From positions 1 through 37,605 of the IMG/VR virus record IMGVR_UViG_3300025671_000187: DNA of 37,605 nucleotides; one strand, given 5' to 3'. The translations under genes were made by a program, and so were the position numbers. Position 1 is the stretch's first letter; the number at the start of each line of letters is the position of its first letter. Below, in pieces: positions 9,742 to 24,760 of the stretch. Below the pieces are notes generated by a model, which made no database searches, was not told the DNA's origin, and worked only from the letters and a program-made list of their open reading frames with translations. The stretch is from a virus (Duplodnaviria > Caudoviricetes).

Positions 9742-9744
9742 CCT

Positions 9745-10200: not shown

Positions 10201-10277
10201 CGTTTACGCTCCGTGTGCTGGTTCGCTCCGCCAGTAGACCCCCTGCCAGCATCCGGGGCTGGCAGGGGGTCGCTTGG

Positions 10278-10934
10278 CTAGCCCTGCTCTGGCTCGACGT
10301 CGGCGACTTTCCAGCTACGCGCCTCGGCGTACAGCCGGCGCAGATTGGAGTAGTCCATCGTGTGAACCTCTTCGAGCGCCGGGGCGCTCTCCGGCACCAC
10401 ACGGCTCTCGTACAGCTCGACGACGCGGTCGATGCCTTCGAGGCGGCGCTTCTCCTGCTCCTGCTCCGCCTGCTTCTTGCGGTCGTCTGCACCGAACACG
10501 GCGTTGTTTGTCTCATCCGGGTCGTTGCCCGTCTCGATGAGCATGGTCTGGCGCAGCGCGTACTTGAGCGCGCCCGTCATCGCCTTGTAGCTGCCTTTGT
10601 CGTCGTTGCCGAAGGACTCGCCGATCGCCTGCACGTCGAAGAACGACCCGCTGGCAGCGTGCGTGTAGCGGTAGCAGTGCCGCCACAGCATGTGGATCTT
10701 CGGACCCCTCTCTGTTTGGACGACCTCGTGGTGGATGAGTTCGCTCTCGCAGCACCTGATCGACAGCCCGACGTCGACCATGTACGGCCTGCACGCGGCG
10801 ATGAACTGCGCCTCCCCAGCGTAGGCGTAGTTGCCCCCGCCCTTGACCCGGTCGGCCTTGTGGACGTAGCCCACCCGCTCCATGACGTACTGCAACGCCT
10901 CGTAGACGTTCTTGACGGATTCCTTTGAAATCAT
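10278..10934 (-). CDS. ERF-family single-strand annealing protein
   Basis: NYAYA motif and DDKGSYKAMTGALKYALRQTMLIETGNDPD (ERF signature G.A.TYA.KYAL...DxD); start overlaps the upstream stop. Confidence 0.85.
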   Translation of the reverse strand: MISKESVKNVYEALQYVMERVGYVHKADRVKGGGNYAYAGEAQFIAACRPYMVDVGLSIRCCESELIHHEVVQTERGPKIHMLWRHCYRYTHAASGSFFDVQAIGESFGNDDKGSYKAMTGALKYALRQTMLIETGNDPDETNNAVFGADDRKKQAEQEQEKRRLEGIDRVVELYESRVVPESAPALEEVHTMDYSNLRRLYAEARSWKVADVEPEQG

Positions 10935-11242
10935 TGAACCTTCTCCCGGTTTATGTAGATGCTCCAAGGCACGCGATGACGCGCCAGTCGCAGCTCCTCG
11001 CGCTCGACGGACATGCTCTCAGGGTCGCGGGTCCACAACGCCGACTTGGGTATCCCAAGCTCCGCTGCGAGACGCCGGGCAATCCACATTGGGGGCACCC
11101 GGTCGCCGTTCTCGTAGCGGGAGATCGACGGCTGGTCCCGGCCCACGAGCAGGCCAAGCTGGCGCTGGCTGAGGCCCCGCTCAAGGCGGGCGCTCCTCAG
11201 CGCGTCAGGGTCGAAAGCGATGGTGACTGGAAGGCACGTCAT
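10931..11242 (-). CDS. XRE-family HTH regulator
   Basis: LRSARLERGLSQRQLGLLVGRDQPSISRYENGDRVP...LAAELGI. Confidence 0.85.
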   Translation of the reverse strand: MTCLPVTIAFDPDALRSARLERGLSQRQLGLLVGRDQPSISRYENGDRVPPMWIARRLAAELGIPKSALWTRDPESMSVEREELRLARHRVPWSIYINREKVQ

Positions 11243-11251
11243 GGCGTCCTC

Positions 11252-11280
11252 ATGCTATGTGATGGTTACTCACCGGTCAA
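11252..11280 (-). promoter_or_regulatory. Sigma70-type promoter
   Basis: TTGACC (11280-11275), 17-bp spacer, TAGCAT (11257-11252); ends 9 nt upstream of the ATG at 11242. Confidence 0.6.
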
Positions 11281-12147
11281 CACCTGTGACTGGCTCATTC
11301 TCTTGCGGCGCGCTTCCTCGCGCCTCCTCGCCGCCCTCGCCTCCGCCTCCTCCATGCGGCGGACGAGGTCGTCCGGCAGCTCCTCGCTGGCCGGGCGCTC
11401 CGGTGGTGGACTGGCCTTCTTGCGTATGCGGTCAAGCCGGTGGCCAAGCTCGTCGAGCTTCGCCCCCTTGTCCTTGTTGAGGAGCCACGTCAGCGACCAG
11501 ACCCAGCCGGAGTCGTTGCTGCCCATCATGAAGCGGTCGTGGACCAGCATGGTGAACAGCTCACGCCACCAGTCCGGGTCGGGCCGCTCCTCCCATCGGG
11601 CCGCTGCTGCCTTGGCGACGGCGGCGTGGTTGGGAGGGGGGCACAGGCCCCTCGTGACCTCGACGTAGGCATCCACCAAGGGTGCCCATGTTGGCGGCGT
11701 CCTGCCCCCCTTGCCGGGCTTCCTGCGGGGGGTCTGCCCCCCGACAGGCTTGGTTCCTTGGCTTGGTTCCTTGGCTTGGTTCTTTACAGCCGCCACTTTT
11801 GGCGGGTCACTCCCGCCATTTCTGTCAGGTGTCTCCTGCCGTTTCTGGCTGGTCGCCACATCTGGCGAGTCGCCAGATCTGGCTGGTGTCAGGATGCGAA
11901 AGACTTTGCGCCGCCCCATGCGACGTGTGGTGACGTACCCGTTCTTCTCCAGCTCAGAGACGCAGCGCGAGAGAGTTCTCTCGGACATGCCTGCCTCCTT
12001 GGCGAGCGTGTCGAAGCCGGGCCAGCACTCAGCCGCACCCGTCCGCTCGGCTGCTGTGTAGCTGTTGAGCAGCGCCACAAGCAGTCGAGCGGACGGGGAT
12101 AGGTTGCGGTCGCCAAGCACACGCTTCGACAACCACGGGCGAGCCAT
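11266..12147 (-). CDS. Replication initiator, N-terminal winged HTH (lambda O-like organisation)
   Basis: LSPSARLLVALL...CWPGFDTLAKEAGMSERTLSRCVSELEKNGYV (HTH_36-like); low-complexity linker overlying DNA repeats; ATG 12147 coupled to the upstream TGA. Confidence 0.75.
   Translation of the reverse strand: MARPWLSKRVLGDRNLSPSARLLVALLNSYTAAERTGAAECWPGFDTLAKEAGMSERTLSRCVSELEKNGYVTTRRMGRRKVFRILTPARSGDSPDVATSQKRQETPDRNGGSDPPKVAAVKNQAKEPSQGTKPVGGQTPRRKPGKGGRTPPTWAPLVDAYVEVTRGLCPPPNHAAVAKAAAARWEERPDPDWWRELFTMLVHDRFMMGSNDSGWVWSLTWLLNKDKGAKLDELGHRLDRIRKKASPPPERPASEELPDDLVRRMEEAEARAARRREEARRKRMSQSQVLTGE
11747..11884. repeat. Putative replication origin: three 13-mers plus five iterons
   Basis: GGCTTGGTTC(C/T)TT x3 in tandem at 11747-11785; CGCCA-N4-TGGCG-like palindromes at 11791, 11814, 11837, 11854 and 11871, inside the initiator gene. 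Confidence 0.7.
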
Positions 12148-13103
12148 CAGAGCCACCCTTTCCCGACCTCGACGACCTCACCGGCTGGGCGTGACCACGC
12201 GCCGTCCTCGTGGGCGATGACGCGGTCGACGCCACGCATCCACTGGTCCAGCGAGGACTGCCACCAGTCGGCGTTGATGGTGCGCTGCCACAGCCAGTCG
12301 TGGTTGCTGGCGATGAAGACGAGCCGGTGCTCAAGGCGGAGCTTGCCGGACTCGCGCGCCTCGCGCAGGCCGGGAAAGTCGTTGTCGAGGCGACCGTCGG
12401 AGATCCACGACCAGAGACACACACCGTGGTGGACGGCTTGAAGGTCGTAGCGGAACTTGCGGATGGAGTTGTCGACCTCGCGGTCTGTCTCTGCCGACGT
12501 GGTCTTCCAGTCGATCCAGACCAACCGCTCGCCATCCCACGCCAAGTGGTCGGGCAGACCCTTGAACGGGACGCCCTTGACCTCGCAGTAGACGGGCACC
12601 TCGACGCAGCAGTGCATCTTGATGATGTCGGCGAGGTCGGCGTAGCCCTTGAGCTTCGACAGGCGCTGGATGCGCTCGTGCAAGACCTTGGCCTGCTCCA
12701 GCTCGGAGCCACGGACAAGCAGGTTGCCCGACTTGGTGGCCTGCTGGATGAGCTTGGCACCCTCTGGCTTGGTTTTCTTGTCGAGCCGGGGGATGGACCA
12801 AACGATGATGTCCTGCTCGCGACCCTCGATCATGGCGTGCAGCGCCTTGCCGAGACGAAGCGCACTGTCGCGCCCGAACGGGTTGCCATCGGCGAAGACG
12901 ACCTCCGGGTCGCCACTGATCAACGCATCGTTGCGCTTCTTCTCGGTGGCCTTGGCCTCGAGTCCGTGCTGCATGCAGTTGGCGGCGATGTGCTTGAAGT
13001 GGCTGCTACGCCAGTGCTCGCACAGGTCGTAGTTCTCCTCCGGCTCAGGCACGGAAGCAACGTCGAACCCCGCGTTGCGATAGAAAAAATCCATGATGTC
13101 CAT
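12147..13103 (-). CDS. RecE/ExoVIII-like PD-(D/E)XK exonuclease
   Basis: ALRLGKALHAMIE, EVPVY, FKGLPDHL, IDWKTT and YDLQA motifs; two genes upstream of the ERF annealase in the same run. Confidence 0.8.
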   Translation of the reverse strand: MDIMDFFYRNAGFDVASVPEPEENYDLCEHWRSSHFKHIAANCMQHGLEAKATEKKRNDALISGDPEVVFADGNPFGRDSALRLGKALHAMIEGREQDIIVWSIPRLDKKTKPEGAKLIQQATKSGNLLVRGSELEQAKVLHERIQRLSKLKGYADLADIIKMHCCVEVPVYCEVKGVPFKGLPDHLAWDGERLVWIDWKTTSAETDREVDNSIRKFRYDLQAVHHGVCLWSWISDGRLDNDFPGLREARESGKLRLEHRLVFIASNHDWLWQRTINADWWQSSLDQWMRGVDRVIAHEDGAWSRPAGEVVEVGKGWL

Positions 13104-13415
13104 TCAGTCCTCCAGATCGAGTGCTTCGATGATGAGATCGGCCATCACGCGGCGGGCTGCGCGTCGCGTGCTGGCGGTGTAGGCGTGTCGCTGGTCCTCG
13201 ACCTCGACGACGTGGCCGACGTCGTTGGACGCAGCCCACTTGCTGGCGTACTCCAGCGGCGAGCGGCACTCGGAAGGCAGGGTGCGCAGCGCGATAGTGC
13301 CAAGCGACCGTCGTCGCTCAAGGTTGTGCAGCAGGCGCTGCCTGATCTTCTCCATGTCGCCGAACGTGCCTTCCCAAGCCAGATCGACGAGCCGTTGGAC
13401 ATGGTTGGTAGCCAT
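13104..13415 (-). CDS. Hypothetical early protein
   Basis: ATG 13415 with AAGGAG; abuts the exonuclease start. Confidence 0.6.
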   Translation of the reverse strand: MATNHVQRLVDLAWEGTFGDMEKIRQRLLHNLERRRSLGTIALRTLPSECRSPLEYASKWAASNDVGHVVEVEDQRHAYTASTRRAARRVMADLIIEALDLED

Positions 13416-13510
13416 GACGCTCCTTGCCCCTGTCGGGGCGCTGTGTGACGGCGGAATGCCGCCACGTCGCATACCCACCGACCGAAGCCGATGGGCATGG
13501 TGACGTGGCG
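13416..13510 (-). promoter_or_regulatory. Structured intergenic leader element A
   Basis: Minus strand: CGCCACGTC-AC-CATGCCCATCGGC-TTCG-GTCGGTGGGTATG-C-GACGTGGCG; GGCATTCCGCC; GCCCC-GACA-GGGGC-AAGGAG-N4-ATG. Confidence 0.75.
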
Positions 13511-13831
13511 TCAGTCTGTGAACGGGATGCCAATCGCGTCCTTGATGTGCTCAGTCAGCTCGTCGAGGCCACGGTCGCTCCCCTCCACATGCTCGACGCT
13601 CTCAAGGGCGGCGAGGAGGCGCGCGTCGGCGTCGCTGGAGATACGCCTGAGCAGGAAAAGCAAGAGCAGCTTCTCCTCGTCGGCGTTGATGTGGATGCTG
13701 CTGTTGATGCTTGTGGCCCAGCGCGTGATCGAGAACGAACTGGTGTGGCTGTAGAGTTGAAGGCTCCTGTATTCGTCCTCGATGGACGTGCGGGACATCG
13801 ACTCTTTGTCGAGTCGGTAGGTCGCTGCCAT
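13511..13831 (-). CDS. Hypothetical early protein
   Basis: ATG 13831 (MAATYRL) with GGAG SD. Confidence 0.6.
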   Translation of the reverse strand: MAATYRLDKESMSRTSIEDEYRSLQLYSHTSSFSITRWATSINSSIHINADEEKLLLLFLLRRISSDADARLLAALESVEHVEGSDRGLDELTEHIKDAIGIPFTD

Positions 13832-13892
13832 GACATGCTCCAGCGCGTTGGTAGGCAGCCGCGCCCCTGCCGTTGGGTTGTGGCGAGGTGTC

Positions 13893-14663
13893 CTAGAAGT
13901 TCCAGCAGACGATGTCTTCGACGTCGAACAGGTTGGACAGGGCGGCGAGGAACTTGTGAGTGCCGTGGGCCTCAAGAAGAGCGTTTAGCTCGTCATCGAG
14001 GCCAGCGTTACTCGCGACGACGCACGACTTGTTCGACGCGACCTTGCGCAGCTCATCCACGTCGAGACTGTCGAGCAGCTCGTACAGCATCGCATCACGG
14101 ACCTCGTCATCGCCGTGGTACTCGTCGTGCAGCCAGCGCACGACGTCGTCGGCCTCGATCTCCATCATCCCGTTCTCGCGCAGGTACTCCGTGACCCGGT
14201 GCATGCCGAAGACGCTCTGCGCAGATTCGAGCACGTCGGACAAGCAGACGGTGCTGACGCTGGTCAGCTCATCGAGGAAGTTGCACCACACCCCGTTCAG
14301 CACGGCCTCGCCGACACGAACGACGAAGTCGTCGTCTCCCTGCACGATGAGGGCCAAGACTTCCGGCAGACGGTTGATGAGGGAGAGCTGGCGCTCGCCG
14401 TCGTTCAGGAACGCGAGACGCGCCGACTTGCTGTCAGCGAGCGCCAGCAGGGAGACAGAGTCGGAGAGCGCGCTCACTGCCTCGGCGATGGCGCTGGCCG
14501 GCAGACTCTCCGGCAGCACGCCGGACTTCGCGATGTTGCGCCAGCCCTCCTTGACGGGCGTGACTTCCACCTCCTTGACGGAGGGCTCGTCCCTACGCCG
14601 ACTGAGGTCGATGAGGGCGTTGGCGATGTCCTCGAGGGCCTTCTGGATGTTCTCGTTGCTCAT
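13893..14663 (-). CDS. Acidic hypothetical early protein
   Basis: ATG 14663 (MSNENIQ) after the leader hairpin; D/E-rich helical C-terminus. Confidence 0.7.
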   Translation of the reverse strand: MSNENIQKALEDIANALIDLSRRRDEPSVKEVEVTPVKEGWRNIAKSGVLPESLPASAIAEAVSALSDSVSLLALADSKSARLAFLNDGERQLSLINRLPEVLALIVQGDDDFVVRVGEAVLNGVWCNFLDELTSVSTVCLSDVLESAQSVFGMHRVTEYLRENGMMEIEADDVVRWLHDEYHGDDEVRDAMLYELLDSLDVDELRKVASNKSCVVASNAGLDDELNALLEAHGTHKFLAALSNLFDVEDIVCWNF

Positions 14664-14770
14664 GGTTTTCTCTCTTGCCCCGCTTGGGGCTACTTGTGCG
14701 GCATGTTCGCCGCTTGATTGAGACGCATACACTGGCGCAACCTTAGCGTCAAGTGCTGTCATGCGTCGCT
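14664..14770 (-). promoter_or_regulatory. Leader element G with possible sigma70 promoter
   Basis: TTGACG (14752-14747), 17 bp, TATGCG (imperfect -10); then GCGGCG-AACA-TGCCGC and GCCCC-AAGC-GGGGC-AAGAGAG before the ATG. Confidence 0.55.
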
Positions 14771-15106
14771 TCAGTCCTTGTTGAGGGACGACCCGATGGC
14801 GTCGTTGTAGGCGTCGATGCCAAGCCCCATGCCCATCTGCATGGCGTATTCTCGGCGGTCGGCCTCATCCTCTCGGCGCTCCCTGTGCTTGCGCTGCTGG
14901 ACCGCCACGTCGGTTGGTTTGTGCAGCTCGTGCTCCGTCTCGATGAAGCCCTGCACATAGACGAGGCTTACCCAATAGCCCTCCTCGGTGTACGAACTGT
15001 TGGCGATGAGACCCTTGGCCTGATCGAAGGTCAGGTTCTCGTGGTACTCGACGTCGACCGCGCCATACTCCAGCGGGTGGCGGTCCCAAACGATCACTGC
15101 GTACAT
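14771..15106 (-). CDS. Hypothetical early protein
   Basis: 111 aa ORF with AGGAGG SD, tightly packed with its neighbours. Confidence 0.7.
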   Translation of the reverse strand: MYAVIVWDRHPLEYGAVDVEYHENLTFDQAKGLIANSSYTEEGYWVSLVYVQGFIETEHELHKPTDVAVQQRKHRERREDEADRREYAMQMGMGLGIDAYNDAIGSSLNKD

Positions 15107-15107
15107 G

Positions 15108-15692
15108 TCAGTCCTCCTTCCTGCTGCGGTGGACGATGACGCCCTCGCGCGTCTCTTCGACGAGGTCAGGGTGGTAGACCATGTTGATCAGAGCCCATCC
15201 CTTCGCTTCCGGCATCATGTGGCACAGCTCAAGGAGCGCACGCATGCTGCGACGTTCCTCGCGCAAGCCGAACGGCCTGAATCTGGTGAACTTGGTAACG
15301 AAGTCGATCATCGTCGCGGCGTTCGTGAAGCCAGAGTTGTTGATGCGCATGGTGTCGTGCTTGCCAGTAAAGTCGCGGTACAACTTGCTGCTGCACAGGT
15401 ACAAGTTGCTATGGGGCCACCGCTCCTCGTCCTCGACGTGCAGTTCGCAAGCCTCGATCGGGCCGCAGTTCTGCTTGTAGATGGTGACGCCATCGGGCAG
15501 CAGACGGTCGATGTATTCGCCGACCGTCATCATCCGCACCTCCATGTTGCAGTCATCGCACCACGCGCGATCGTCCTCGCACGAGCCAAGGTCTTCGTCG
15601 GTATCGAAGTTGACCCGCGCCCAGACGCGCGTCTGCACGTCGATGCTTCCGCACTCGGCACAGCAGATGTGCCCCCACTTGATGTCAGTCAT
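15108..15692 (-). CDS. Hypothetical protein with N-terminal zinc ribbon
   Basis: CAECGS...WCDDC (two CxxC); ATG 15692 with AAGGAG. Confidence 0.7.
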   Translation of the reverse strand: MTDIKWGHICCAECGSIDVQTRVWARVNFDTDEDLGSCEDDRAWCDDCNMEVRMMTVGEYIDRLLPDGVTIYKQNCGPIEACELHVEDEERWPHSNLYLCSSKLYRDFTGKHDTMRINNSGFTNAATMIDFVTKFTRFRPFGLREERRSMRALLELCHMMPEAKGWALINMVYHPDLVEETREGVIVHRSRKED

Positions 15693-15789
15693 GTCATCAC
15701 TCCTTTGCCTCATGTCGAGGCTGGGCGCGGCGAAATGCCGGGCTCCCGCATGCCCACCGACCGAAGCCGATGGGCATGGTGGGAGCGCG
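15693..15789 (-). promoter_or_regulatory. Structured intergenic leader element B
   Basis: Core 15747-15781 is 34/35 identical to 13468-13502; outer stem GCTCCC/GGGAGC; GGCATTTCGCC; GCCTC-GACAT-GAGGC-AAAGGAG. Confidence 0.75.
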
Positions 15790-16065
15790 TCAGTCCATGC
15801 GCATCAGGGTCCACTCGAAGCGCGGTCCGGGCATGCCAGACCAGCAGCAGTCGCACGAGCTGGTGCCGAACTCCTCGCGGTCGCGGTGCTCCATGATGAG
15901 GTAGCCGCCGTCCTCGACGCGCTCCAGCGCCTGATCGACGACGACGTCATGGTCGTCGGGCAGGTCGAAGCCCTCGGGCGTCATGCCGTAGGCGTGGTGC
16001 AGCATGATGGCGTTGCAGTCGGGGCAGACGCTCCACTGCTCCGTGTCGTGGTTGTTCTCAGACAT
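15790..16065 (-). CDS. Small Cys-rich (CxxC...CxxC) acidic protein
   Basis: VCPDC and SCDCC motifs; ATG 16065 with GAGGAG. Confidence 0.65.
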   Translation of the reverse strand: MSENNHDTEQWSVCPDCNAIMLHHAYGMTPEGFDLPDDHDVVVDQALERVEDGGYLIMEHRDREEFGTSSCDCCWSGMPGPRFEWTLMRMD

Positions 16066-16387
16066 CGTCTTGCTCCTCGCCTGCATCGGCGTTGAGCCGC
16101 GCACAGTGGATGTGGTTGCCCAGCTTTTCGTTGACCTTGTCGCGGTACAACGTCAGCGCGGCGTGCAGCCGCTCGTCCTCGTTGGCGAACTGGACCGGGG
16201 TGAAGTAGTTGCCCCAATAGGTCGAGACGATGCGGCCGGACTTGGCGTCGACCATGCACTGCCAGACGACGTACTCCTCGCCGACCTTGCACAGGCACCA
16301 GCCGTCGACGTTACCGTCGCCGTTCGGGCGGGGGTGGACGGCGGACCAGAACAGGTACTGCCGGTCTTCGTTGTTGTAGTGGTGCAT
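16058..16387 (-). CDS. Hypothetical early protein
   Basis: 109 aa, translationally coupled on both sides. Confidence 0.65.
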   Translation of the reverse strand: MHHYNNEDRQYLFWSAVHPRPNGDGNVDGWCLCKVGEEYVVWQCMVDAKSGRIVSTYWGNYFTPVQFANEDERLHAALTLYRDKVNEKLGNHIHCARLNADAGEEQDDV

Positions 16388-16635
16388 CAGGCGTTCTCCT
16401 TGTTGCGGTTGGCCATGCGGCGCTCGATCTCCTCGACCACGCGGGGCAGAAGCTGCTTGGCGGTGCGCCCCGCGAAGCCCATCTGCCGGGCCACCTTGAC
16501 CGGGCTGACCTTGCTCATGCGGATGCCCTTGATGTGCATGCGCAGCGCGGCCTTGAGGGTGATGAGCCTCATCAGCTCGATGTCCTGCTTTCCGGTGATG
16601 ACGTGACCCCCTCCGGGGATTTTCTCGATGGTCAT
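16387..16635 (-). CDS. Small basic hypothetical protein
   Basis: ATG 16635 (MTIEKIPG) with GGAG; Lys/Arg-rich. Confidence 0.6.
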   Translation of the reverse strand: MTIEKIPGGGHVITGKQDIELMRLITLKAALRMHIKGIRMSKVSPVKVARQMGFAGRTAKQLLPRVVEEIERRMANRNKENA

Positions 16636-16636
16636 T

Positions 16637-16972
16637 TCACAGCTCCATGTTGTTGGCCCGCTCGATGATGAGAGGGATGCGCTTGTGGAAACGCTGGGGG
16701 ACGCGGGGGGCGGGCTGCTCGAACGAGTCGAAGTGGGTCGGCAGGATGCCGTCCACCTCCTCCGCGTAGCCCCGCGAGTAGAGGTCGCCGGCCTTGTAGA
16801 ACCGACGCTGCACCTCGATGCAGACGCGCGCGTGCTCGCCGCGCATGATGGCGTAGGTGCGGGCGATCGGCCCCAGCTCCTTCGTGTCCTCGAAGAAGAA
16901 CTGCTGCTCGATCTCACCGAACTCGTTGAGCCCCTGCACCGCGTACTCGTAGTCGACGCGCCGGCCCATCAC
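16637..16972 (-). CDS. Hypothetical early protein
   Basis: GTG/ATG start overlapping the upstream stop; GAGG SD. Confidence 0.65.
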   Translation of the reverse strand: MMGRRVDYEYAVQGLNEFGEIEQQFFFEDTKELGPIARTYAIMRGEHARVCIEVQRRFYKAGDLYSRGYAEEVDGILPTHFDSFEQPAPRVPQRFHKRIPLIIERANNMEL

Positions 16973-17262
16973 GACACCTCGCTGAGGCTCAAGTCCTCAC
17001 CGTAGAGCACGATCGCCTCGTCGAGCTGGCGGAACTCCGCGCTGCTCGCGTCGCGGAACTCCTCGACGTACTTGGCGCGCAGGTACTTGAGCAGGAACAG
17101 CTCAGCGCGGGCCTTCTGCTGCTCCAGCGGGCACCCGGTCTTGTTGGCGCGCTCGATGTGGCCGTGCAGCTTGGCGCACGAGTTGTAGGCCCGGCTGATG
17201 AGCCTCGTCTGCCGGGCGCGCTTGCGCAGCGCCTTCACGCCGCAATCCTGTGGAACGTACAT
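16969..17262 (-). CDS. Hypothetical early protein
   Basis: 97 aa; GGAGGA SD after leader C. Confidence 0.65.
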   Translation of the reverse strand: MYVPQDCGVKALRKRARQTRLISRAYNSCAKLHGHIERANKTGCPLEQQKARAELFLLKYLRAKYVEEFRDASSAEFRQLDEAIVLYGEDLSLSEVS

Positions 17263-17367
17263 GGAATCCTCCCCCCATCGGGGTGTTGTGTTGCGCCCTT
17301 GCGGGCGTGGTGGCCAATGACACCAGTCCTGCCCCGGAACGCTCGCGCGCTCCGGGGCAGAGTGGAA
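17263..17367 (-). promoter_or_regulatory. Structured intergenic leader element C
   Basis: CTGCCCCGGAGCGC-GCGA-GCGTTCCGGGGCAG hairpin (17329-17360); CGCCC-GCAA-GGGCG; CAACACAACA linker; CCCC-GAT-GGGG-GGAGGA. Confidence 0.7.
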
Positions 17368-18318
17368 TCACTCGCCCATGTAGGGACGTCCGGGGTAGAA
17401 CGGGAACACGACCAGCCCGCAGTCGTCGTGGCAGACAGCGAGGTACTTGATGCCGTTGTCGTCCTTGACCCAGCCGATGTTGTTGCCCTCCTCGTCCTCG
17501 GCGAGCGAGAAGCCCTCCGACTCAGCGTGGTACGACGGGTTGGAGCTGTAGCCGCGCGAGAACTCGCCACGGTCGTTGTAGCTCTCCGCCATGTCCTCGG
17601 CGCGCTCCAGATCGCTCTCGTCGTCCTCATCGGGAGCCATCGCCTCGATGCGCTGCGGGATGAGGCTGGGGTCGCCGATGTACCACTCGACGCTCAGGTC
17701 GATCGGGATGGCGTACTCGCCCTCGAAGTAGCCGAACTGCGGCGAGCTGTAGCCGCCGCGCACGTCCGCGCCGTTGTGCGTCTGGATGACGATGAAGCGG
17801 AACGGCAGGGCCCACCCGTCGACGAGGTCGGCCAGCTCCTCCGCCTCCTCCGTGCTGTCGCAGTGGTCGAACAGGTAGTGCAGCGGCGGGTCGTAGTCCG
17901 TCGTCTCGAAGTCGGCCCACAGCCAGTCGCCGGAGTGGTGGTCCTTGGCCTCGAACACGCTGTAGACGAAGTTCTGATCGAGGTCGTTCTCGCTGTTGTA
18001 GGTGTTGTCGCGCGCGACCTCCTCGTAGCCCAGCATGTCCGCGAGCCGGTAGACGTCCTCCATCCACGAGTTGTTGTCGTCGGCGATGTGGTCGAACACC
18101 TTGTGCAGCCCGGTGTGGTACTCCCACAGGTCCGCGAGCAGCTTGGTCAGGTTGATCTGGCACGACCCGTCGATGTCCCACGGCTTCTCGTCGAGCGTGA
18201 TCGGGCTCTCGTCCGGCGCGGGCTGCTGCCAGTGCCGCCCGCTCGCGCCCCCGCTGTCGAGGAAGTGCTTGCCGGTGTTCTCGCGCGTGATCTCCAGCGC
18301 GGTGTTGTAGCTGATCAT
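17368..18318 (-). CDS. Highly acidic conserved-looking phage protein
   Basis: 316 aa, very D/E-rich; motif-like blocks ENTGKHFLDSGG..GRHWQ, DNTYNSE and QTHNGADVRGGYSSP. Confidence 0.75.
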   Translation of the reverse strand: MISYNTALEITRENTGKHFLDSGGASGRHWQQPAPDESPITLDEKPWDIDGSCQINLTKLLADLWEYHTGLHKVFDHIADDNNSWMEDVYRLADMLGYEEVARDNTYNSENDLDQNFVYSVFEAKDHHSGDWLWADFETTDYDPPLHYLFDHCDSTEEAEELADLVDGWALPFRFIVIQTHNGADVRGGYSSPQFGYFEGEYAIPIDLSVEWYIGDPSLIPQRIEAMAPDEDDESDLERAEDMAESYNDRGEFSRGYSSNPSYHAESEGFSLAEDEEGNNIGWVKDDNGIKYLAVCHDDCGLVVFPFYPGRPYMGE

Positions 18319-18425
18319 TCTCTCACTCCGATGCCCCTTGTTGAGGCTCTCTGCTGGTTGGCGTAACTGCCAGCCATGCGCATGCGCACCACCTCTCGCA
18401 AGGTGATGCGCATGGTGCTTGGCTA
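18319..18425 (-). promoter_or_regulatory. Structured intergenic leader element F
   Basis: TAGCCA-AGC-AC-CATGCGCATCACCTT-GCGA-GAGGTGGTGCGCATG-C-GCA-TGGCTG; GGCAGTTACGCC; CAGCAGAGA; GCCTC-AACAA-GGGGC-ATCGGAG. Confidence 0.75.
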
Positions 18426-18887
18426 TCAGCCGTCAAGCTTGTTGACGCCAAACGTCCATGCGGACGTGCGGACGATCTCCTTGCCCTGCAACCGGGACAG
18501 AAGCTGCCCCGCCTTTGCGGCGATGCGCTCGACGTTGCAGCGGTGGAACTCCGACTGGTGCACCTCGGTGTAGTGCAGCTCCCTGCATCCGATGACCAGC
18601 GGCGCGTAGCCACAGCCACCATCCATCGCGTCGTAGGGCACACCAACGACGTATCGGGAGGACGGCGATGTCAGCAGCGACCGGATGCGCTCCGAGTGGT
18701 ACAGGTCCGGCTCGATGAGGCGTAGACCATGATCGCGGGTCCACGAGTCCGGCATGATGACACGCAGGAACGAGCGCACCTCGCACTCGAAGTCGAAGTC
18801 GAGCATGTCGGCGTCGAGCCAGTGGTCGGCGTCGAAGTAGAGCGTCTGCGCGACGCCCCGTGCCTTGTAGATGCCACGACCCATCAC
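18426..18887 (-). CDS. Hypothetical early protein
   Basis: 153 aa; AAGGAGG SD; start overlaps the upstream stop. Confidence 0.7.
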   Translation of the reverse strand: MMGRGIYKARGVAQTLYFDADHWLDADMLDFDFECEVRSFLRVIMPDSWTRDHGLRLIEPDLYHSERIRSLLTSPSSRYVVGVPYDAMDGGCGYAPLVIGCRELHYTEVHQSEFHRCNVERIAAKAGQLLSRLQGKEIVRTSAWTFGVNKLDG

Positions 18888-19219
18888 TTCACCTCCTTGT
18901 CGTCCTCGACGTCGCCGACGAACGCCTCGATGAACTCATCCGCCTCGTTGCGCAGGCACTCGATCCAGTCGGCCTCATCCCACGGAACGAACGCGCCGCT
19001 ATCGCCGTTCAACTCGGCCTCCTCCGCGTCGTCCCAATCCTCGTACAGCGGGTGCGGCTTGCGCCCGTAGCTCTCGACGGACAGGCAGTGCGGGTTGTGG
19101 AACAGGTCCAGCCAGTCTTCACCATCGAACCGCTCGATGATCAGACCGTAGTCGACGTACATGCTGTTGAAGGCCGTCAGACGGAACACTCCGTAGGTGG
19201 CCTGTGCGATGATTCCCAT
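18884..19219 (-). CDS. Very acidic small protein
   Basis: ATG 19219 with AAGGAG; C-terminal half dominated by D/E with aromatic residues. Confidence 0.7.
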   Translation of the reverse strand: MGIIAQATYGVFRLTAFNSMYVDYGLIIERFDGEDWLDLFHNPHCLSVESYGRKPHPLYEDWDDAEEAELNGDSGAFVPWDEADWIECLRNEADEFIEAFVGDVEDDKEVK

Positions 19220-19325
19220 TGGGAACTCCTTGCGCCCCGTTCGGGGCTCTCTGCTGAACGGCATGATTGCCGGTCATGCGCATGCCCCGGAACGCTCGCA
19301 CGCTCCGGGGCATGGTGCTTGACCG
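19220..19325 (-). promoter_or_regulatory. Structured intergenic leader element D
   Basis: CGGTCA-AGC-AC-CATGCCCCGGAGCGT-GCGA-GCGTTCCGGGGCATG-C-GCA-TGACCG; GGCAATCATGCC; CAGCAGAGA; GCCCC-GAAC-GGGGC-GCAAGGAG. Confidence 0.75.
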
Positions 19326-19538
19326 TCAAACACCCTCGGCGAGCAGGGCGTCAAGCGCAGCGTTGATCGTCCGCTCCGCGTCGCACGTCTCGCCGTTGGC
19401 GATCTGGAACAAACGGTTGGCGATGTCGTCGAGCGACGGCCACTTGCGCCAGCTCTCGACGCACTCGATCTCGGCGAGCAAACGCTCGACGTCGGCGAGA
19501 AGCATCGCGGCGATGCGCTGGATCTCGTTGTTGTTCAT
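19326..19538 (-). CDS. Small helical hypothetical protein
   Basis: ATG 19538 (MNNNEIQ) after a GCCCC-GAAT-GGGGC hairpin; first gene downstream of the strong promoter. Confidence 0.65.
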   Translation of the reverse strand: MNNNEIQRIAAMLLADVERLLAEIECVESWRKWPSLDDIANRLFQIANGETCDAERTINAALDALLAEGV

Positions 19539-19634
19539 GGCATTCTCGCTTGCCCCATTCGGGGCGATTGCGCCGCATGCGCGGCATGGTTCAGGCAGAT
19601 GCACCGCTCCCTGTGAGCGACGATGCCTACCGGC

Positions 19635-19663
19635 ATCATACACTAATCCGTCAATAATGTCAA
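19635..19663 (-). promoter_or_regulatory. Near-consensus sigma70 early promoter
   Basis: TTGACA (19663-19658), 17 bp, TATGAT (19640-19635); followed by structured leader H (19539-19634). Confidence 0.85.
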
Positions 19664-19706
19664 CCCCCTACGAGGCACGGTTGACGCTGGGTTTCCGGCT
19701 CGTTTT

Positions 19707-19801
19707 CGCACAGGGTTGGCGAGCTGCGCACAGGGTTGTCGGGTTACGCACGGGGTTGGCGAGCTGCGCACAGGGTTGGCGAGCTACGCACAGGGTTGGC
19801 G
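19707..19801. repeat. 20-bp tandem repeat, five copies
   Basis: CGCAC(A/G)GGGTTG(G/T)CG cores start at 19707, 19727, 19747, 19767 and 19787; non-coding. Confidence 0.9.
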
Positions 19802-19894
19802 TTCTTTGGTGGTTGGATGGTCGGCTGCGCTTGCGTCGGGCGGTTTGGTGGGGCGGCGCGCTCGTTTGGGCCAGAGATTCCAGGCGGATTGCCC

Positions 19895-19940
19895 AAAACG
19901 AGAAAAGCCCCGCCGATCTTGCGACCGACGGGGCTTTTCG
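19895..19940 (-). terminator. Intrinsic terminator, possibly bidirectional
   Basis: Minus strand AAAA-GCCCCGTCGGTC-GCAA-GATCGGCGGGGC-TTTTCTCGTTTT directly after the stop at 19944. Confidence 0.8.
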
Positions 19941-19943
19941 TTG

Positions 19944-20162
19944 CTACCTGTGCTTGTTTTCTTGGATTCGCTCGTAGGTCACGTCCATGACGTGGAAGCC
20001 GAAGCCGATCGCGGCGATCGTCATGGCGAGGCTTCCCAGCGTCGCGAGCATGCCGCCACCCATGACGATCGTCATGGGTACGCAAAGCACGCCGAAATGC
20101 AGGATGCCCGCGAGCGCGAGGAACAGACCCAACACAAACGCTGCGTAAATGATGATGTTCAT
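19944..20162 (-). CDS. Small membrane protein (about 2 TM helices)
   Basis: 72 aa, almost wholly hydrophobic except a charged C-tail; GAGG SD after leader E. Confidence 0.7.
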   Translation of the reverse strand: MNIIIYAAFVLGLFLALAGILHFGVLCVPMTIVMGGGMLATLGSLAMTIAAIGFGFHVMDVTYERIQENKHR

Positions 20163-20257
20163 CGTTGCTACCTCTGCCCCGTGCGGGGCTCATAGGGGGC
20201 ACTAGCGCCCATTCATGCCCCGGAACGCTTGCGCGCTCCGGGGCATGGTGGGGGCTA
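20163..20257 (-). promoter_or_regulatory. Structured intergenic leader element E
   Basis: 20214-20250 is 35/37 identical to 19281-19317 (differences at the apex; loop GCAA); GCCCC-GCAC-GGGGC-AGAGG. Confidence 0.75.
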
Positions 20258-20854
20258 CTACTCCGCGCAGATCTTGTCGTGAATGGCCTTGACCATCGTC
20301 TCGACGCGATCCAGACGGTTCCGCGTGTCGATCAGGAAGGCGACCGCGCGGCTCGCGTCGTTGATCGGCTTGCTGATCGACGTGCCGGCCTTGCCCCGGC
20401 GCGAGTAGGCGACCGTGGCGTTGTTGTCCGTGCACCGCTCGCCACTGGCCTGCATGGCCTTGTACGTCTTGGCGATGGCCCATGCGTAGGCCAGCGTTCC
20501 GGCGGGCTTCTTGGACGTCACGCCGCGCAGGAGGCTGCGCATCACGCGCGCGGCCGCATCCTCATCGACGTCGGACAGCGCCCGGATCGTCTCGAAGGCC
20601 TTGACCGCTTCACCGCACGTCCGGACCGCGTAACCCGGGATCACGTGGCCACCGAGCTGGGCGCTCCGGATCGCCGGGATGATCAGGGTGTCGACGGCGG
20701 AGATCACATCGGCGAGATCCACCTTCGAGACGCTCTCGCCCAGCTCGAGATCGGCCTTGCCGATCGTCGTCGGCTTGAACATGCTGAACATGGTCGACGT
20801 GGACCCGTAGGTCTGGTCGACGGTGCGCTTGATGTTGGCGATATCGTTGCTCAT
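20258..20854 (-). CDS. Hypothetical protein, first gene of the early region
   Basis: ATG 20854 (MSNDIANIK) with GAGG SD; the upstream extension in the ORF track runs through hairpin-rich DNA and is not accepted. Confidence 0.7.
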   Translation of the reverse strand: MSNDIANIKRTVDQTYGSTSTMFSMFKPTTIGKADLELGESVSKVDLADVISAVDTLIIPAIRSAQLGGHVIPGYAVRTCGEAVKAFETIRALSDVDEDAAARVMRSLLRGVTSKKPAGTLAYAWAIAKTYKAMQASGERCTDNNATVAYSRRGKAGTSISKPINDASRAVAFLIDTRNRLDRVETMVKAIHDKICAE

Positions 20855-20954
20855 TTTTTCTACCTCATGGCCCCGTTTCGGGGCGTTAGGACCGGGCGGT
20901 ATTGCCCGTGCCCTGCCCTGCCCTGCGACCGGAGCCGTAGGGCAGGGCAGGACA
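20855..20954 (-). promoter_or_regulatory. Structured leader element I
   Basis: TGTCCTGCCCTGCCCTACGG-CTCCGG-TCGCAGGGCAGGGCAGGGCA long hairpin; CGGGC-AATACC-GCCCG; GCCCCG-AAA-CGGGGC-CATGAGG. Confidence 0.7.
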
Positions 20955-21095
20955 AGCGACCGCGAACGGTCGCAAGCCTGCGAGGTAGTAGCTTGAACTA
21001 TGCTGTAACGCTGCCCCTTTCGGGGTGTCGGTCCGCTGTCGGACCCGTCTGCGATGCCAGCCTTAGCGGGGCGCTCAGCCCCTGTCGGCAAACGC

Positions 21096-21124
21096 ATCAT
21101 CGCCAGACGACAACCCGGCGTCAA
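21096..21124 (-). promoter_or_regulatory. Possible sigma70 promoter for the early region
   Basis: TTGACG (21124-21119), 17 bp, GATGAT (21101-21096). Confidence 0.45.
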
Positions 21125-21630
21125 CTCGGCGGGCAACCTGCCGGAATGACTGCGCTTTCTCGGCTGGGCTGGTCGTCTTGGCATAGCGGGCTGCACGTCT
21201 CAGCCCGTGCCTTTCCTAGTGCTTTCGGTGGGTTACGGACCGTTGCCCCATGCCGGGCACGCTGTCGACGCTTGCGGGCGGTGCCGGGCCTTCGGACCCC
21301 ACGGAGCCCCCGGCCCAGCCCCAAGGGGGGGCGGCATCGCAGGCCGGGGGCGCGCGGGGGTAGACCACGCACACAAAATAACCCATCCCCAGACCTGCAC
21401 CCGGTTTGAGGCTGGGAGCTGTGTGTGAACGAGAGGCTTCTCTGTTGGAGAGGCTGACTCAGATGGCTTACTGCTAGTCAGTGAGCCTGTTGTAGAGCAC
21501 AAGATGTGTTTGATGGTAGCACGGATTCTGAGTGATCGGAAGCAGCTCTCATAACGCCCTGATGTTGTGGAGGGCGGAGAGCGAGCTACGCGCTGACATG
21601 AGGGGGATGCGCGTAAAAGGCTGTGTTTTG

Positions 21631-21703
21631 AAAAGGGAAGGCCCTGCCGCCCCGCCTCGTCTGGTGCTGGCAGACAGGTTGTGGAGACGAGAACGGCAGG
21701 GCC
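21631..21703 (-). terminator. Probable terminator of the middle operon
   Basis: GGCCCTGCCG/CGGCAGGGCC stem (21640-21649/21694-21703) with inner CTCGTCT/AGACGAG pairing, followed on the - strand by TTCCCTTTT. Confidence 0.5.
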
Positions 21704-21715
21704 AAGGTCGTGATG

Positions 21716-21997
21716 CTAGCTGTGGTGGAGCTTGAGCGCCAGTGCGTGCAGGTCGTCGCTTGAAGACGATGCTCGAGCTGGCTGTGGCCGCTCCTCCGGC
21801 TCGTAGCCTGTGAGGTCGCGGTACATGGCCTTCGCCAGCCGCTGCGCTGCCTGCTCCTTGTTGCGCTGGTGGTCGGGGTTGGGCTTGCCGAACAGGATGA
21901 GGTCCGGGTCGCTCCCGAAGATGTCGTGGGCGATGCGCTTGCCCATCGTCTCCGCCAGCTCCATCAACTGCTCCTTGTCACACGGCTCGAAGCTCAT
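21716..21997 (-). CDS. Hypothetical protein
   Basis: 93 aa; AAGGAGG SD. Confidence 0.65.
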   Translation of the reverse strand: MSFEPCDKEQLMELAETMGKRIAHDIFGSDPDLILFGKPNPDHQRNKEQAAQRLAKAMYRDLTGYEPEERPQPARASSSSDDLHALALKLHHS

Positions 21998-22220
21998 GGG
22001 CCACCTCCTTTGCGATCATGTTGAGGTGGATGGTGAGCAGGACGTTCAGCTCGCGGATGGAGGCCGCTTCCAGCGCGTGAAGCTGCGCCCAGCGGGCGTG
22101 ACCTCCCTTCGTCGGCAGCCCTGCCTTCTTCTCGAGGATCAGGTCGAACACCCTGCGGCACTCGTACAGGCCGCTGGAGGTGATGCGCAGCGTCTCGCGC
22201 ACCTCGTTGATGTCCATCAT
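21978..22220 (-). CDS. Hypothetical protein
   Basis: 80 aa; ATGA overlap with the upstream gene. Confidence 0.6.
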   Translation of the reverse strand: MMDINEVRETLRITSSGLYECRRVFDLILEKKAGLPTKGGHARWAQLHALEAASIRELNVLLTIHLNMIAKEVAHELRAV

Positions 22221-22513
22221 GCGTTCCCATCGGGCGGCTCGATGGCCAGCCCCTCACTGAACCCGATGGTCTGGCCCAGCTTGAAGGCGTTGTCGAGGTC
22301 GATCTCCCGGTGCCCCGTCACGAAGAACGTCACGGAGGGCTCGCCCGTCGGCGGGACCAGAACCCATGTCCGCTCGTGCTTGTCCTTGAACGCCACGTCC
22401 GCCCCGACCTGACAGACCTTGAACGCCAGCCGCTCTGCCGGCACGTCAGGCAGCCCCTGCCGAATCTCCGCCTGCCCGCCACGCTTGGCGCGCTTTCGCT
22501 TTCCCTTTCCCAT
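22217..22513 (-). CDS. Hypothetical protein with basic N-terminus
   Basis: ATG 22513 (MGKGKRKRAK) with AAGGAG. Confidence 0.65.
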   Translation of the reverse strand: MGKGKRKRAKRGGQAEIRQGLPDVPAERLAFKVCQVGADVAFKDKHERTWVLVPPTGEPSVTFFVTGHREIDLDNAFKLGQTIGFSEGLAIEPPDGNA

Positions 22514-22528
22514 GTTGTGCTCCTTGGT

Positions 22529-22576
22529 GGCCAGATATGGCGACCCGCCAACTTTGGCGACCCGCCATATCTGGCG
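22529..22576. repeat. Triple palindromic site (C/G)GCCA-N4-TGGCG, 17-bp period
   Basis: GGCCAGATATGGCG (22529), CGCCAACTTTGGCG (22546) and CGCCATATCTGGCG (22563), in the spacer downstream of ssb. Confidence 0.8.
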
Positions 22577-22609
22577 TGTGTGCTCCACCGTCCACGCTTG
22601 CTTGATGGA

Positions 22610-23056
22610 TTAGAACGGAAAGTCGTCCTCGAACCCGTCATAGCCGGTGTCGTTGTTGCGTGTGTTGCTTGGCGGTGCGCTGCGCTGCGAGGAGGGGGCC
22701 GCTCCGCCGTCCTTCTTGTCTTTGCCGTCGCCATCGAGGAACTGGACTGTGCGGGCGACGATCTCCGTCTTGTAGCGGTCGGTGCCGTCCTGCGCCGTCC
22801 ACTTGCGAGTCTGAATCTTGCCCTCGACGAAGACCTGACGTCCCTTTGACAGGTAGCGTTCACACAACTCGGCGAGCTTGTCCCACGCGACGACGGAGTG
22901 CCACTCGGTCTTCTCCTGCTGCTGGCCGCTCTTGTCCTTCCATCGCTCGCTCGTTGCGACGCGAAGCTGAACCACAGCGCGGTTGGAGTTGGTGTGGCGG
23001 ATCTCAGGGTCAGCCCCCAAGCGCCCGATAATCATCGCTTTGTTCAGTCCTGACAT
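22610..23056 (-). CDS. ssb: Single-stranded DNA-binding protein
   Basis: LNKAMIIGRLGADPEIR...ATSERWKDKSG...EKTEWHSVV...KGRQVFVEGKIQTRKW, with acidic DDFPF tail; ATG 23056 with GAGGAG. Confidence 0.95.
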   Translation of the reverse strand: MSGLNKAMIIGRLGADPEIRHTNSNRAVVQLRVATSERWKDKSGQQQEKTEWHSVVAWDKLAELCERYLSKGRQVFVEGKIQTRKWTAQDGTDRYKTEIVARTVQFLDGDGKDKKDGGAAPSSQRSAPPSNTRNNDTGYDGFEDDFPF

Positions 23057-23057
23057 A

Positions 23058-23471
23058 TCACTGCTCCTCAGACCCGTACCGGGTCGTTGTCTTGAACTCT
23101 TGACGCCGGCTCTCGTCCGGCTTTTCACGTCTTCCGCTGACGCGCCGCAACCATCCCTTGGCTGCTCCGACGATGTCCTTCCAGAAGAACCCGACGTTTA
23201 GCGCGCCAGCGAAGCCCCACATGGCTCCAACGAAACCGTCGTTGCCCATCGTGTCGCTCAGGTGCCCGTAAGCGAAGCCTACGAGCGTGCCAGCGATGGC
23301 GGACAACAAGCTGCTGACGCAGTACCAGAGAAAGTCTGCGGTGCCCGAAAGCCCCCCAACGTCTCTCTCATACCTTTTATGCGCTGCCTCGAGGCCCTGC
23401 TTGAGCCCCGCAGCTACGCCCATCGCGATGGCCGGACACCCGGCCCACGTCAGCAGATCTGTTGTCCCCAC
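23058..23471 (-). CDS. Membrane protein, about 3 TM helices (holin-like topology)
   Basis: Three hydrophobic Gly/Ala-rich segments and a basic C-tail; GTG start. Confidence 0.6.
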   Translation of the reverse strand: MGTTDLLTWAGCPAIAMGVAAGLKQGLEAAHKRYERDVGGLSGTADFLWYCVSSLLSAIAGTLVGFAYGHLSDTMGNDGFVGAMWGFAGALNVGFFWKDIVGAAKGWLRRVSGRREKPDESRRQEFKTTTRYGSEEQ

Positions 23472-23480
23472 CTTGGCCCC

Positions 23481-23888
23481 CTACGACCCCGGGTTGTCGG
23501 GAAAGCGGACGATATGGACCTTCCGCTTGCCTTCGACCATCGTGACCACCGTCCATGTTCGGTCACGAGGAACTGAGCTGTCGTTCAAGCCCTCGTTGCT
23601 TACCAGCATCTTCGCTTCTTCGACGCTCTTTGCCCTTCCCTTGCAGAAGTAGGCGTAGGTGCCCTTGTCGAAACGATCGACCTGCCACCGCCCCCGAAAC
23701 TCTACCGGGTGCGTGATAACGAGGTAAGCCTTAGTCAGGTGACGCAGCCGCTCGTCGTCGAGCGTCTTCTTGCCGCGCTCCCACATCTGAATGGCACGCC
23801 GGGGGATGTCCGACAGCTCCTCTAGCCTTTTGAACGTCAGGCGCTCGTCGGCGGCGCGCACACGCCGCAGCTCATCAGGGCGAAGCAT
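23481..23888 (-). CDS. XRE-like HTH protein with extra C-terminal domain
   Basis: ELRRVR...LTFKRLEELSDIPRRAIQMWERGKK; ATG 23888 with AGAGG. Confidence 0.65.
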   Translation of the reverse strand: MLRPDELRRVRAADERLTFKRLEELSDIPRRAIQMWERGKKTLDDERLRHLTKAYLVITHPVEFRGRWQVDRFDKGTYAYFCKGRAKSVEEAKMLVSNEGLNDSSVPRDRTWTVVTMVEGKRKVHIVRFPDNPGS

Positions 23889-24477: not shown

Positions 24478-24481
24478 CGCC

Positions 24482-24697: not shown

Positions 24698-24731
24698 GAT
24701 GTGCTCCATGCCTCAACCGCGAGGCACCAGA

Positions 24732-24760
24732 ACACTACACCCGTTTGGGTGCGATGTCAA
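24732..24760 (-). promoter_or_regulatory. Sigma70 promoter of the middle operon
   Basis: TTGACA (24760-24755), 17 bp, TAGTGT (24737-24732); followed by GCCTC-N6-GAGGC hairpin and GGAG. Confidence 0.7.

What the first reader, a model, noticed from the sequence alone, without database searches (positions are those of the whole stretch)
13416..20954. Early region is punctuated by a family of nine covarying, multi-hairpin intergenic RNA elements (cassette-like array)
Seen: the spacers at 13416-13510, 14664-14770, 15693-15789, 17263-17367, 18319-18425, 19220-19325, 19539-19634, 20163-20257 and 20855-20954 are all about 95-107 nt. On the - strand they read [long hairpin, or promoter] - [short GGC..GCC hairpin] - [A/C-rich linker] - [GCC(C/T)C-loop-G(G/A)GGC hairpin] - SD - ATG. 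Structure is kept while sequence changes. Elements D and F share AAGCACCATG, the TGCGAG apex, CATGCGCATG and CAGCAGAGAGCC, but their stems are swapped with pairing retained (CGGTCA/TGACCG vs TAGCCA/TGGCTG; CCCCGGAGCG/CGTTCCGGGG vs CGCATCACCT/AGGTGGTGCG). G-U pairs and GNRA/UUCG tetraloops read correctly only on the coding strand, which points to function as RNA. Inference: each 1-5 gene module has its own processing and translation leader, forming a modular array of probable host-takeover or anti-defence genes. Known analogues are the T7 early RNase III sites and T4-type PeSL cassettes, but I do not recognise this tripartite motif.
Basis: partly seen in the sequence, partly recalled or inferred. 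Interest (0 to 1): 0.85.

Follow-up and report, generated by a model that had tools for sequence, protein, structure and literature searches.

The report
Cut-and-refold leaders between phage genes
An uncultured aquatic phage separates its small unknown-function genes with nine folded RNA spacers kept by compensating mutations, which likely mark where the host enzyme RNase III cuts the long message so that each piece would refold into a protected, ribosome-ready start, a familiar trick in an uncatalogued three-part form.

Summary
The nine spacers are real. Eight of nine fold far better than shuffles on the coding strand (z -3.4 to -6.5) and none matches Rfam. Seven carry a long GNRA/UNCG-capped stem (P1), then two short hairpins (P2, P3) and the ribosome-binding site. 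In two, a promoter-like sequence stands in front of P2-P3. A sister strain keeps element I by compensatory changes. P1 has most of the RNase III proximal box, and the cut it predicts leaves 0-2 free bases before a longer P2 that competes with P1's lower stem. Best reading (0.6): T7-type processing signals that also build a protective 5' hairpin, as in S. aureus cspA. Cleavage is not shown, the host is unknown, and no null was run for the RNase III score. The sequence family is private to this phage, but the layout recurs in distant phages, and this scan noted such arrays before on other DNA. Anti-defence function and cassette swapping are unsupported in this phage. New variant of a known kind.

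The parts
21096..21124 (-). sigma70-like promoter candidate heading the block
   Evidence: 9 of 12 consensus match; -35 hexamer unchanged in the sister strain, -10 changes but keeps A at 2 and T at 6 (read by hand). Function inferred.
20955..21095 (-). structured non-coding leader: several hairpins, including a P2/P3-like pair (21047-21013) with no start codon behind it
   Evidence: fold; compensatory U-A to C-G at 21043/21032 in the sister strain
20855..20954 (-). element I: P1 20954-20909, extended P2 20913-20889, P3 20884-20870, SD; predicted 3'-strand cut before 20914 or 20909
   Evidence: z -6.0; 11 substitutions in the sister strain, 10 compatible with the fold; registers
20163..20257 (-). 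element H: P1, P2 overlapping P1's lower stem, P3 20189-20176, SD; predicted cut before 20211
   Evidence: z -6.5
19902..19939 (-). intrinsic-terminator-like hairpin with U tract, ending the first two modules
19635..19663 (-). sigma70-like promoter in front of element G
   Evidence: 11 of 12 consensus match; in the sister strain the -35 hexamer shows no change while flanks and spacer change, and the -10 keeps T1, A2, A5, T6 (read by hand; 40 of 502 differences shown)
19539..19634 (-). element G: no P1; variant P2, P3 19565-19552, SD
   Evidence: z -1.3 only; P3 pattern match
19220..19325 (-). element F: P1, P2, A/C-rich linker, P3 19247-19234, SD; predicted cut before 19278
   Evidence: z -5.5
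18319..18425 (-). element E: same frame as F with swapped stems; P3 18347-18333; predicted cut before 18378
   Evidence: z -5.9; sister-strain change at 18344 turns a U-G pair of P3 into C-G
17263..17367 (-). element D: P1, P2, an extra GNRA hairpin, looser P3 17283-17272, SD; predicted cut before 17325
   Evidence: z -5.8
15693..15789 (-). element C: P1 with UUCG cap, P2, P3 15721-15707, SD; predicted cut before 15746
   Evidence: z -4.3
14664..14770 (-). element B: degenerate P1 containing a promoter-like sequence (14752-14724; -10 lacks its last T), P2, P3 14690-14677, SD
   Evidence: z -3.4; promoter-like match by my own pattern, not listed by the scan
13416..13510 (-). element A: P1 with UUCG cap, 8-bp extended P2, P3 13439-13426, SD; predicted cut before 13467; heads the run into exonuclease, replication initiator, Erf, resolvase
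   Evidence: z -5.2
13104..20854 (-). 16 small ORFs of unknown function in modules of 1, 1, 1, 2, 1, 5, 2, 2 genes plus the gene after A; the 316-aa gene 17368-18318 belongs to a widespread phage family

Best explanation
The spacers are RNA signals kept by compensating mutations; the long stem P1 is likely cut by host RNase III at its internal loop, and the freed strand is predicted to refold into a longer hairpin P2 at the new 5' end, which would protect the downstream message while P3 would keep the ribosome-binding site apart from upstream structure. Shown: the folds, their conservation, the overlap of P1's lower stem with extended P2, and promoter-like sequences standing where P1 is missing. 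Inferred: early polycistronic transcription from three promoter candidates, the cut, the enzyme, the refolding in vivo, and the stabilising effect. If only the 3' strand is nicked, as the unpaired positions between the two cut sites suggest, P1 would also stay as a protective 3' hairpin on the upstream message, as described for T7.
For: Geometry: upper stems 13-18 bp above an internal loop, no U tract; E. coli RNase III needs an 11-bp helix and internal loops limit it to one nick (PMC1540722). Proximal box: U-A at +3 in 7 of 7 P1 (the position where G-C/C-G blocks binding), G-C at +4 in 6 of 7, A-U at +2 in 5 of 7, in a 64% GC genome. With the in vivo E. coli pair table (PMC6212723 Table S4) the best of up to 16 registers scores -23.2 to -25.3 in 6 of 7, above that paper's stricter threshold of -25.5; D scores -26.6. 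In A, C, E, F the best full-score register gives the same 3'-strand cut as the proximal-box register. That cut leaves 0-2 unpaired bases before a hairpin in 7 of 7 minimum-energy folds; in the ensemble 6 of 7, with E at 6. The first ten bases after the cut pair upstream in the precursor (0.57-0.88 in six; 0.31 in I) and downstream in the product (0.47-0.89). Sister strain, element I: two double compensatory changes, one mismatch turned into U-G, one G-U of the P2 extension turned into G-C, three loop or flank changes, one broken pair; the 11 pairs at the foot of the stem are unchanged. At G and B a promoter-like sequence precedes the same P2-P3-SD frame, so P1 looks like another way to make a 5' end. 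Precedent: RNase III cut in the S. aureus cspA leader leaves a shorter 5' hairpin and a more stable mRNA (PMC3386247 passages).
Against: No cleavage or expression data. +1 is C-G in 6 of 7 and U-G in 1, where E. coli in vitro prefers A-U/U-A (C-G costs 7-fold; 7 of 85 in vivo). The distal box is only half met: U-G at +9 in 3 of 7, U-A at +10 in 0 of 7. The positions between the cuts are unpaired or bulged in 6 of 7, against about 90% paired in E. coli double cuts. The matrix score has no null of my own, well-paired stems score well anyway, many registers were tried, and the copies are not independent. For D, H and I the proximal-box, half-site and full scores pick different registers. In the distant array L061 the same register has G-C at +3 in 3 of 4 (read by hand). 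SD accessibility does not change consistently after the cut (up in 5, three of them by 0.05 or less; down in 2), so a translation switch is not supported. The host, and so its RNase III preference, is unknown.
Confidence: 0.6

Rival explanations
1. The spacers are not cut by a dedicated step. P1 is a pause site, leaky terminator or 3'-exonuclease roadblock for the upstream genes, and P2-P3 only insulate the next ribosome-binding site.
For: P1 starts directly after the stop codon in six elements, where 3'-protective hairpins sit; some GC-rich bacteria are said to use terminators without U tracts (recalled). P3 lies 8-15 nt before the start codon in all nine.
Against: No U tract, while the phage's real terminator at 19939-19902 has one. 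No promoter follows P1, so termination would silence six modules. It does not explain the fixed pairs at the foot of the upper stem or the selected P2 extension.
Confidence: 0.2
2. P3 (with P2) is a binding site for a phage or host protein that controls translation or antitermination of all modules together, like a boxB hairpin or translational operator (analogues recalled).
For: P3 stem sequence, not just structure, is nearly fixed in 8 of 9 and also follows the promoters; the genome has many unknown small proteins.
Against: P3 loops vary in length (4-5 nt) and sequence; the sister strain changes a stem pair compatibly; distant arrays keep the hairpin with other sequences. Shared stems can come from duplication.
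Confidence: 0.08
3. The cut is real but made by a phage-encoded nuclease or by the RNA itself at the conserved internal loop, not by RNase III.
For: The three bases before the predicted 5'-strand cut are the same in 6 of 7 P1, and L061 keeps its own fixed internal loop; several E. coli RNase III rules are broken.
Against: No ribozyme family match; no nuclease recognised among the module genes; stem length and +3/+4 pairs fit RNase III.
Confidence: 0.07
4. The elements act as single-stranded DNA hairpins: recombination sites for gene cassettes (attC-like) or hairpin promoters for an injected polymerase (N4-like).
For: They also fold as DNA; the phage encodes Erf and exonuclease VIII-like proteins; in L061 versus L195 two extra genes lie at module edges.
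Against: GNRA/UNCG caps in 7 of 7 and SD coupling point to RNA; no integrase or RNA polymerase among 47 ORFs scanned, and the 1647-aa protein resembles polyvalent virion proteins without a polymerase hit; the sister strain shows no joint at an element. Repeats may still serve as passive crossover points.
Confidence: 0.05

Closest known systems
RNase III processing signals of phage T7 early pre-mRNA (R1.1 and its sister sites)
   Same: Intercistronic long stem with tetraloop cap and internal loop; proximal-box-like pairs; single nick predicted to leave a protective 3' hairpin (PMC1540722, PMC8708148 section 2.2.2).
   Different: Here P1's lower stem doubles as the arm of a second hairpin, a third hairpin precedes the SD, and promoters replace P1 at two places; +1 and distal box depart from E. 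coli rules; the phage has no recognised RNA polymerase and an unknown host.
Staphylococcus aureus cspA 5' UTR
   Same: RNase III cuts a long leader hairpin and leaves a leader of about 52 nt with a shorter 5' hairpin and higher stability (PMC3386247 passages); predicted product leaders here are 49-63 nt.
   Different: cspA is one cellular gene with a double cut that also frees the SD; here the unit is repeated between genes and no consistent SD release is predicted.
Bacillus phage SP82/SPO1 early-mRNA RNase III sites
   Same: Repeated RNase III sites in a phage early region (seen only as a sentence and two reference titles in PMC4838370; host-takeover context recalled).
   Different: Original papers not held; structure not compared.
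T4-type promoter-stem-loop (PeSL) cassettes (recalled)
   Same: Repeated intergenic units bounding small early genes.
   Different: Those carry a promoter in each unit; here only G, perhaps B, and the head of the block do.

Membership tests
RNase III processing signal (T7 type) | helix of at least 11 bp above the cut, about two turns in all | tested here: met
   upper stems 13-18 bp in 7 of 7; 21-26 pairs in all in the six with a lower stem (control)
RNase III processing signal (T7 type) | proximal box: A-U/U-A at +3, G-C at +4, A-U at +2, A-U/U-A at +1 | tested here: inconclusive
   7 of 7, 6 of 7, 5 of 7, 0 of 7
RNase III processing signal (T7 type) | distal box U-G and U-A (+9, +10) | tested here: inconclusive
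   U-G at +9 in 3 of 7, U-A at +10 in 0 of 7; the paper expects this box to vary between species
RNase III processing signal (T7 type) | fit to the in vivo E. coli pair matrix above chance | tested here: inconclusive
   6 of 7 above -25.5 at the best register; no permutation null run
RNase III processing signal (T7 type) | RNase III-dependent cleavage with 5'-phosphate ends | not testable with these tools
   needs enzyme or rnc mutant
Intrinsic terminator | GC-rich hairpin followed by a U tract | tested here: not met
   none of the nine listed; the site at 19939-19902 is
Described Rfam family (riboswitch, ribozyme, cis-element) | match at gathering score | tested here: not met
   window: 6 matches up to E 5, all far below gathering; 8 distant loci: 0
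Integron attC cassette sites | integron integrase in cis | tested here: not met
   no integrase among 47 ORFs
Integron attC cassette sites | R and L boxes with extrahelical bases | not tested
   no attC model run
N4-type hairpin promoters | virion RNA polymerase gene | tested here: inconclusive
   no hit for the 1647-aa protein in PHROGs, Pfam, NCBIfam, PDB sequences; atlas neighbours carry LPD domains; not folded
T4-type PeSL cassettes (definition recalled) | early promoter in every unit | tested here: not met
   3 promoter-like sites in 8500-27000, one at G

The most novel reading that the evidence does not exclude
Many unrelated phages build their early regions from a portable RNA module in which a cut inside P1 triggers a programmed refold that caps the new 5' end, so a promoter and a processing stem are interchangeable heads of one leader, and the cut may be made by a phage factor or a non-canonical RNase III mode; the same modules give the points where accessory genes are added.
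Probability: 0.15. Interest if true: 0.75.

Novelty: new variant of a known kind. Interest (0 to 1): 0.42.

Why it matters
If right, it shows how a phage turns one early transcript into separately stabilised messages at both ends with one host enzyme, and gives nine natural, compact test cases (about 100 nt) of cut-triggered refolding. They can be tested in vitro and in E. coli rnc strains without culturing the phage, and could serve as insulator parts for synthetic operons. The principle (RNase III punctuation, 5' hairpin protection) is known, so the gain is a new design and its spread, not a new mechanism class.

Tried and rejected
Close relatives: IMG/VR holds only an identical copy; terminase relatives are at most 30% identical. 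A degenerate pattern gave 45 viral stretches; apart from the identical copy (2 of 45) none had the P1 fold. Covariance model R1 (6 elements) finds I (E 2e-5), B (0.013) and G (0.45) in the window but nothing below E 0.1 in 158 distant loci. Paralogue consensus fold: 13 of 27 pairs with a double change, but covariation term only -0.05 and the short stems misaligned; not used as a statistic. Consensus folds of the L061 and L165 arrays failed or were weak through misalignment. No RNA holder listed among 24 runs. Translation switch: not supported. A possible compensation at 21102/21052 was dropped: those bases lie in the promoter candidate and the pair is not in the fold. Cultured Gordonia and Mycobacterium phages with the 316-aa gene (L107, L112, L114) show no such array. 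Host by SSB: 43-66% hits across several phyla, not diagnostic. Permutation null for the RNase III score and linker-shuffle test of the P2 extension: not run, so both remain open. Paper searches returned nothing; PMID 6409421 not held; supplements of PMC10690425: no hit in 6 files searched, 3 files not searched, so the family could be listed there.
Full report
Setting. The window is the whole held genome, one contig of 37,605 bases, 62-66% GC, a tailed phage with terminase, portal, capsid and lysis genes on the + strand and, on the - strand, SSB, methylase, then a block of small unknown genes (20854-13104) that runs into exonuclease VIII-like, replication initiator, Erf and resolvase genes. 'Early region' is inferred from this order. 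The phage is isolated: terminase relatives are at most 30% identical, IMG/VR has only an identical copy. 23 of 24 listed runs hold the stretch, freshwater 2017-18 and seawater 2024. The host is unknown.

Observation. Confirmed; numbers are in the observation check. Seven spacers (A, C, D, E, F, H, I) have a long hairpin P1; G has a strong sigma70-like promoter instead; B has a degenerate P1 that contains a promoter-like sequence sharing G's spacer end but lacking the last T of the -10. All then have P2, a linker, P3 and an SD, with P3 ending 8-15 nt before the start codon. No Rfam match. A model of six elements recovers I, B and weakly G and no further full copy in the genome.

Selection on structure. 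Paralogues swap stems (13 of 27 consensus pairs with a double change), but they fall into few lineages and the alignment is imperfect. Better evidence comes from a sister strain in four seawater runs of one study, counted as one strain. Over 20786-21181 it has 39 substitutions. Eleven fall in element I: G-C to A-U at 20943/20920 and C-G to A-U at 20940/20923 (double compensations), a mismatch turned U-G at 20938/20925, G-U to G-C at 20911/20891 in the extended P2, three unpaired positions, and one broken pair (20926) (pair partners). A further double compensation lies upstream at 21043/21032. In the first lay only 40 of 502 differences were shown; among them E has one, which strengthens P3, and the G promoter keeps its -35 and the key -10 bases while its flanks change.

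What P1 looks like. PMC1540722 (abstract, introduction, passages, first parts of discussion and legends) defines an 11-bp minimal helix, a proximal box and single nicking at internal loops. Aligning P1 by that box gives U-A at +3 in 7 of 7, G-C at +4 in 6, A-U at +2 in 5, but C-G or U-G at +1 in all. With Table S4 of PMC6212723 (passages, one section, first supplement part) the best registers score -23.2 (A, C), -26.6 (D), -23.9 (E), -23.3 (F), -25.3 (H), -24.6 (I) against a threshold of -25.5. This is suggestive only: no null of my own was run, and D, H, I are ambiguous in register. The positions between the cuts are unpaired in six, unlike E. coli double cuts and like single-nick sites such as T7 R1.1 (PMC8708148 section 2.2.2). 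B. subtilis shares the box preferences but not the between-cut preference (PMC11780869 passages), so rules differ by host.

The refold. In every P1 element the 3' strand of the lower stem can pair either back with P1 or forward to lengthen P2. After the predicted cut the product starts with 0-2 free bases and then a hairpin in 7 of 7 minimum-energy folds; ensemble values agree except for E. The G-U to G-C change at 20891 improves a pair that exists only in the forward form. A transcript from B's promoter-like site would start about 4 bases before P2. 5'-terminal pairing hinders RppH and RNase J (PMC3997798 and PMC3386247 passages), and cspA is a direct precedent. SD accessibility does not change in one direction, so I infer stabilisation, not translational switching.

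How general. Using the 316-aa gene family I fetched 158 distant loci. The sequence model finds nothing below E 0.1. A structure-only scan (stop codon, stem of 10 bp or more, SD, start) over these plus L004 and the identical copy as control found two or more units on the gene's strand in 15 of 159 non-self loci and in 0 of 160 on the other strand; the loci are partly redundant, the other strand has fewer genes, and some hits are terminators or lie in genes. Clear arrays: L061 (4, with lower stem, fixed internal loop, P2, A/C linker), L165 (4 read by eye, 5 scan hits), L125 (4, three-part), L160 (2, three-part), none in Rfam. L195 differs from L061 by an 89-aa gene directly behind one element's SD and a 203-aa gene directly before the next element: one case of gain or loss at module edges, in another family. 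Earlier notes of this scan report similar arrays in at least eight other genomes; they are unchecked AI notes and not evidence.

Genes. 0 of 16 module proteins match PADLOC or NCBIfam, none reaches a Pfam cut-off, 3 match PHROGs of unknown function. Host takeover or anti-defence is a guess from position.

In print. Ten searches listed no paper on this three-part phage leader; most older phage papers are outside the library, and three supplement files of PMC10690425 (listing and supplement search only) could not be searched. SPO1 host-takeover, PeSL, boxB, attC and N4 features are recalled.

Verdict. Real, under structural selection, most likely an RNase III-type processing signal fused to a refolding 5' stabiliser and an RBS-proximal hairpin (0.6). 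It works like T7 early sites plus cspA; membership of the RNase III substrate class is untested. New variant of a known kind; interest 0.42.

Noticed in passing
window 19707-19801: 4.8 tandem copies of a 20-bp unit between the terminator and the G promoter; could be operator or origin repeats; sister-strain contigs break inside it.
   Followed up: no
window 20955-21200 (-): Structured leader with a P2/P3-like pair lacking a start codon, a UUCG hairpin and a compensatory change at 21043/21032; may be a separate small RNA released by a cut at element I.
   Followed up: partly
window 21200-21720: Long non-coding stretch with several very stable hairpins, including a terminator-like one near 21703-21637 and a GC-rich one near 21360-21305; possible genome end or packaging region.
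   Followed up: no
window 17368-18318 (-): 316-aa protein of a widespread unnamed phage family (248 relatives) with invariant N-terminal and central motifs rich in D, H, R, Y, found in marine T7-like, Gordonia and Mycobacterium phages; looks like an enzyme; not folded.
   Followed up: partly
window 1289-6232 (+): 1647-aa protein with no family hit; atlas neighbours carry LPD38/LPD3 polyvalent-protein domains, so probably an injected virion protein.
   Followed up: partly
window 11747-11887: Short 13- and 17-bp tandem repeats inside the replication-initiator gene, as expected for a lambda-type origin (recalled).
   Followed up: no
window 9379-9741, 10931-11242, 23481-23951: Three HTH regulators but no integrase recognised.
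   Followed up: no
L125 5732-7900; L160 1713-2400; L061 6889-9352; L165 8114-9862: Uncatalogued arrays of the same layout with their own sequences.
   Followed up: partly
window 15326-15395: 68-base segment replaced by diverged sequence of the same length in the sister strain, inside the 194-aa gene.
   Followed up: no
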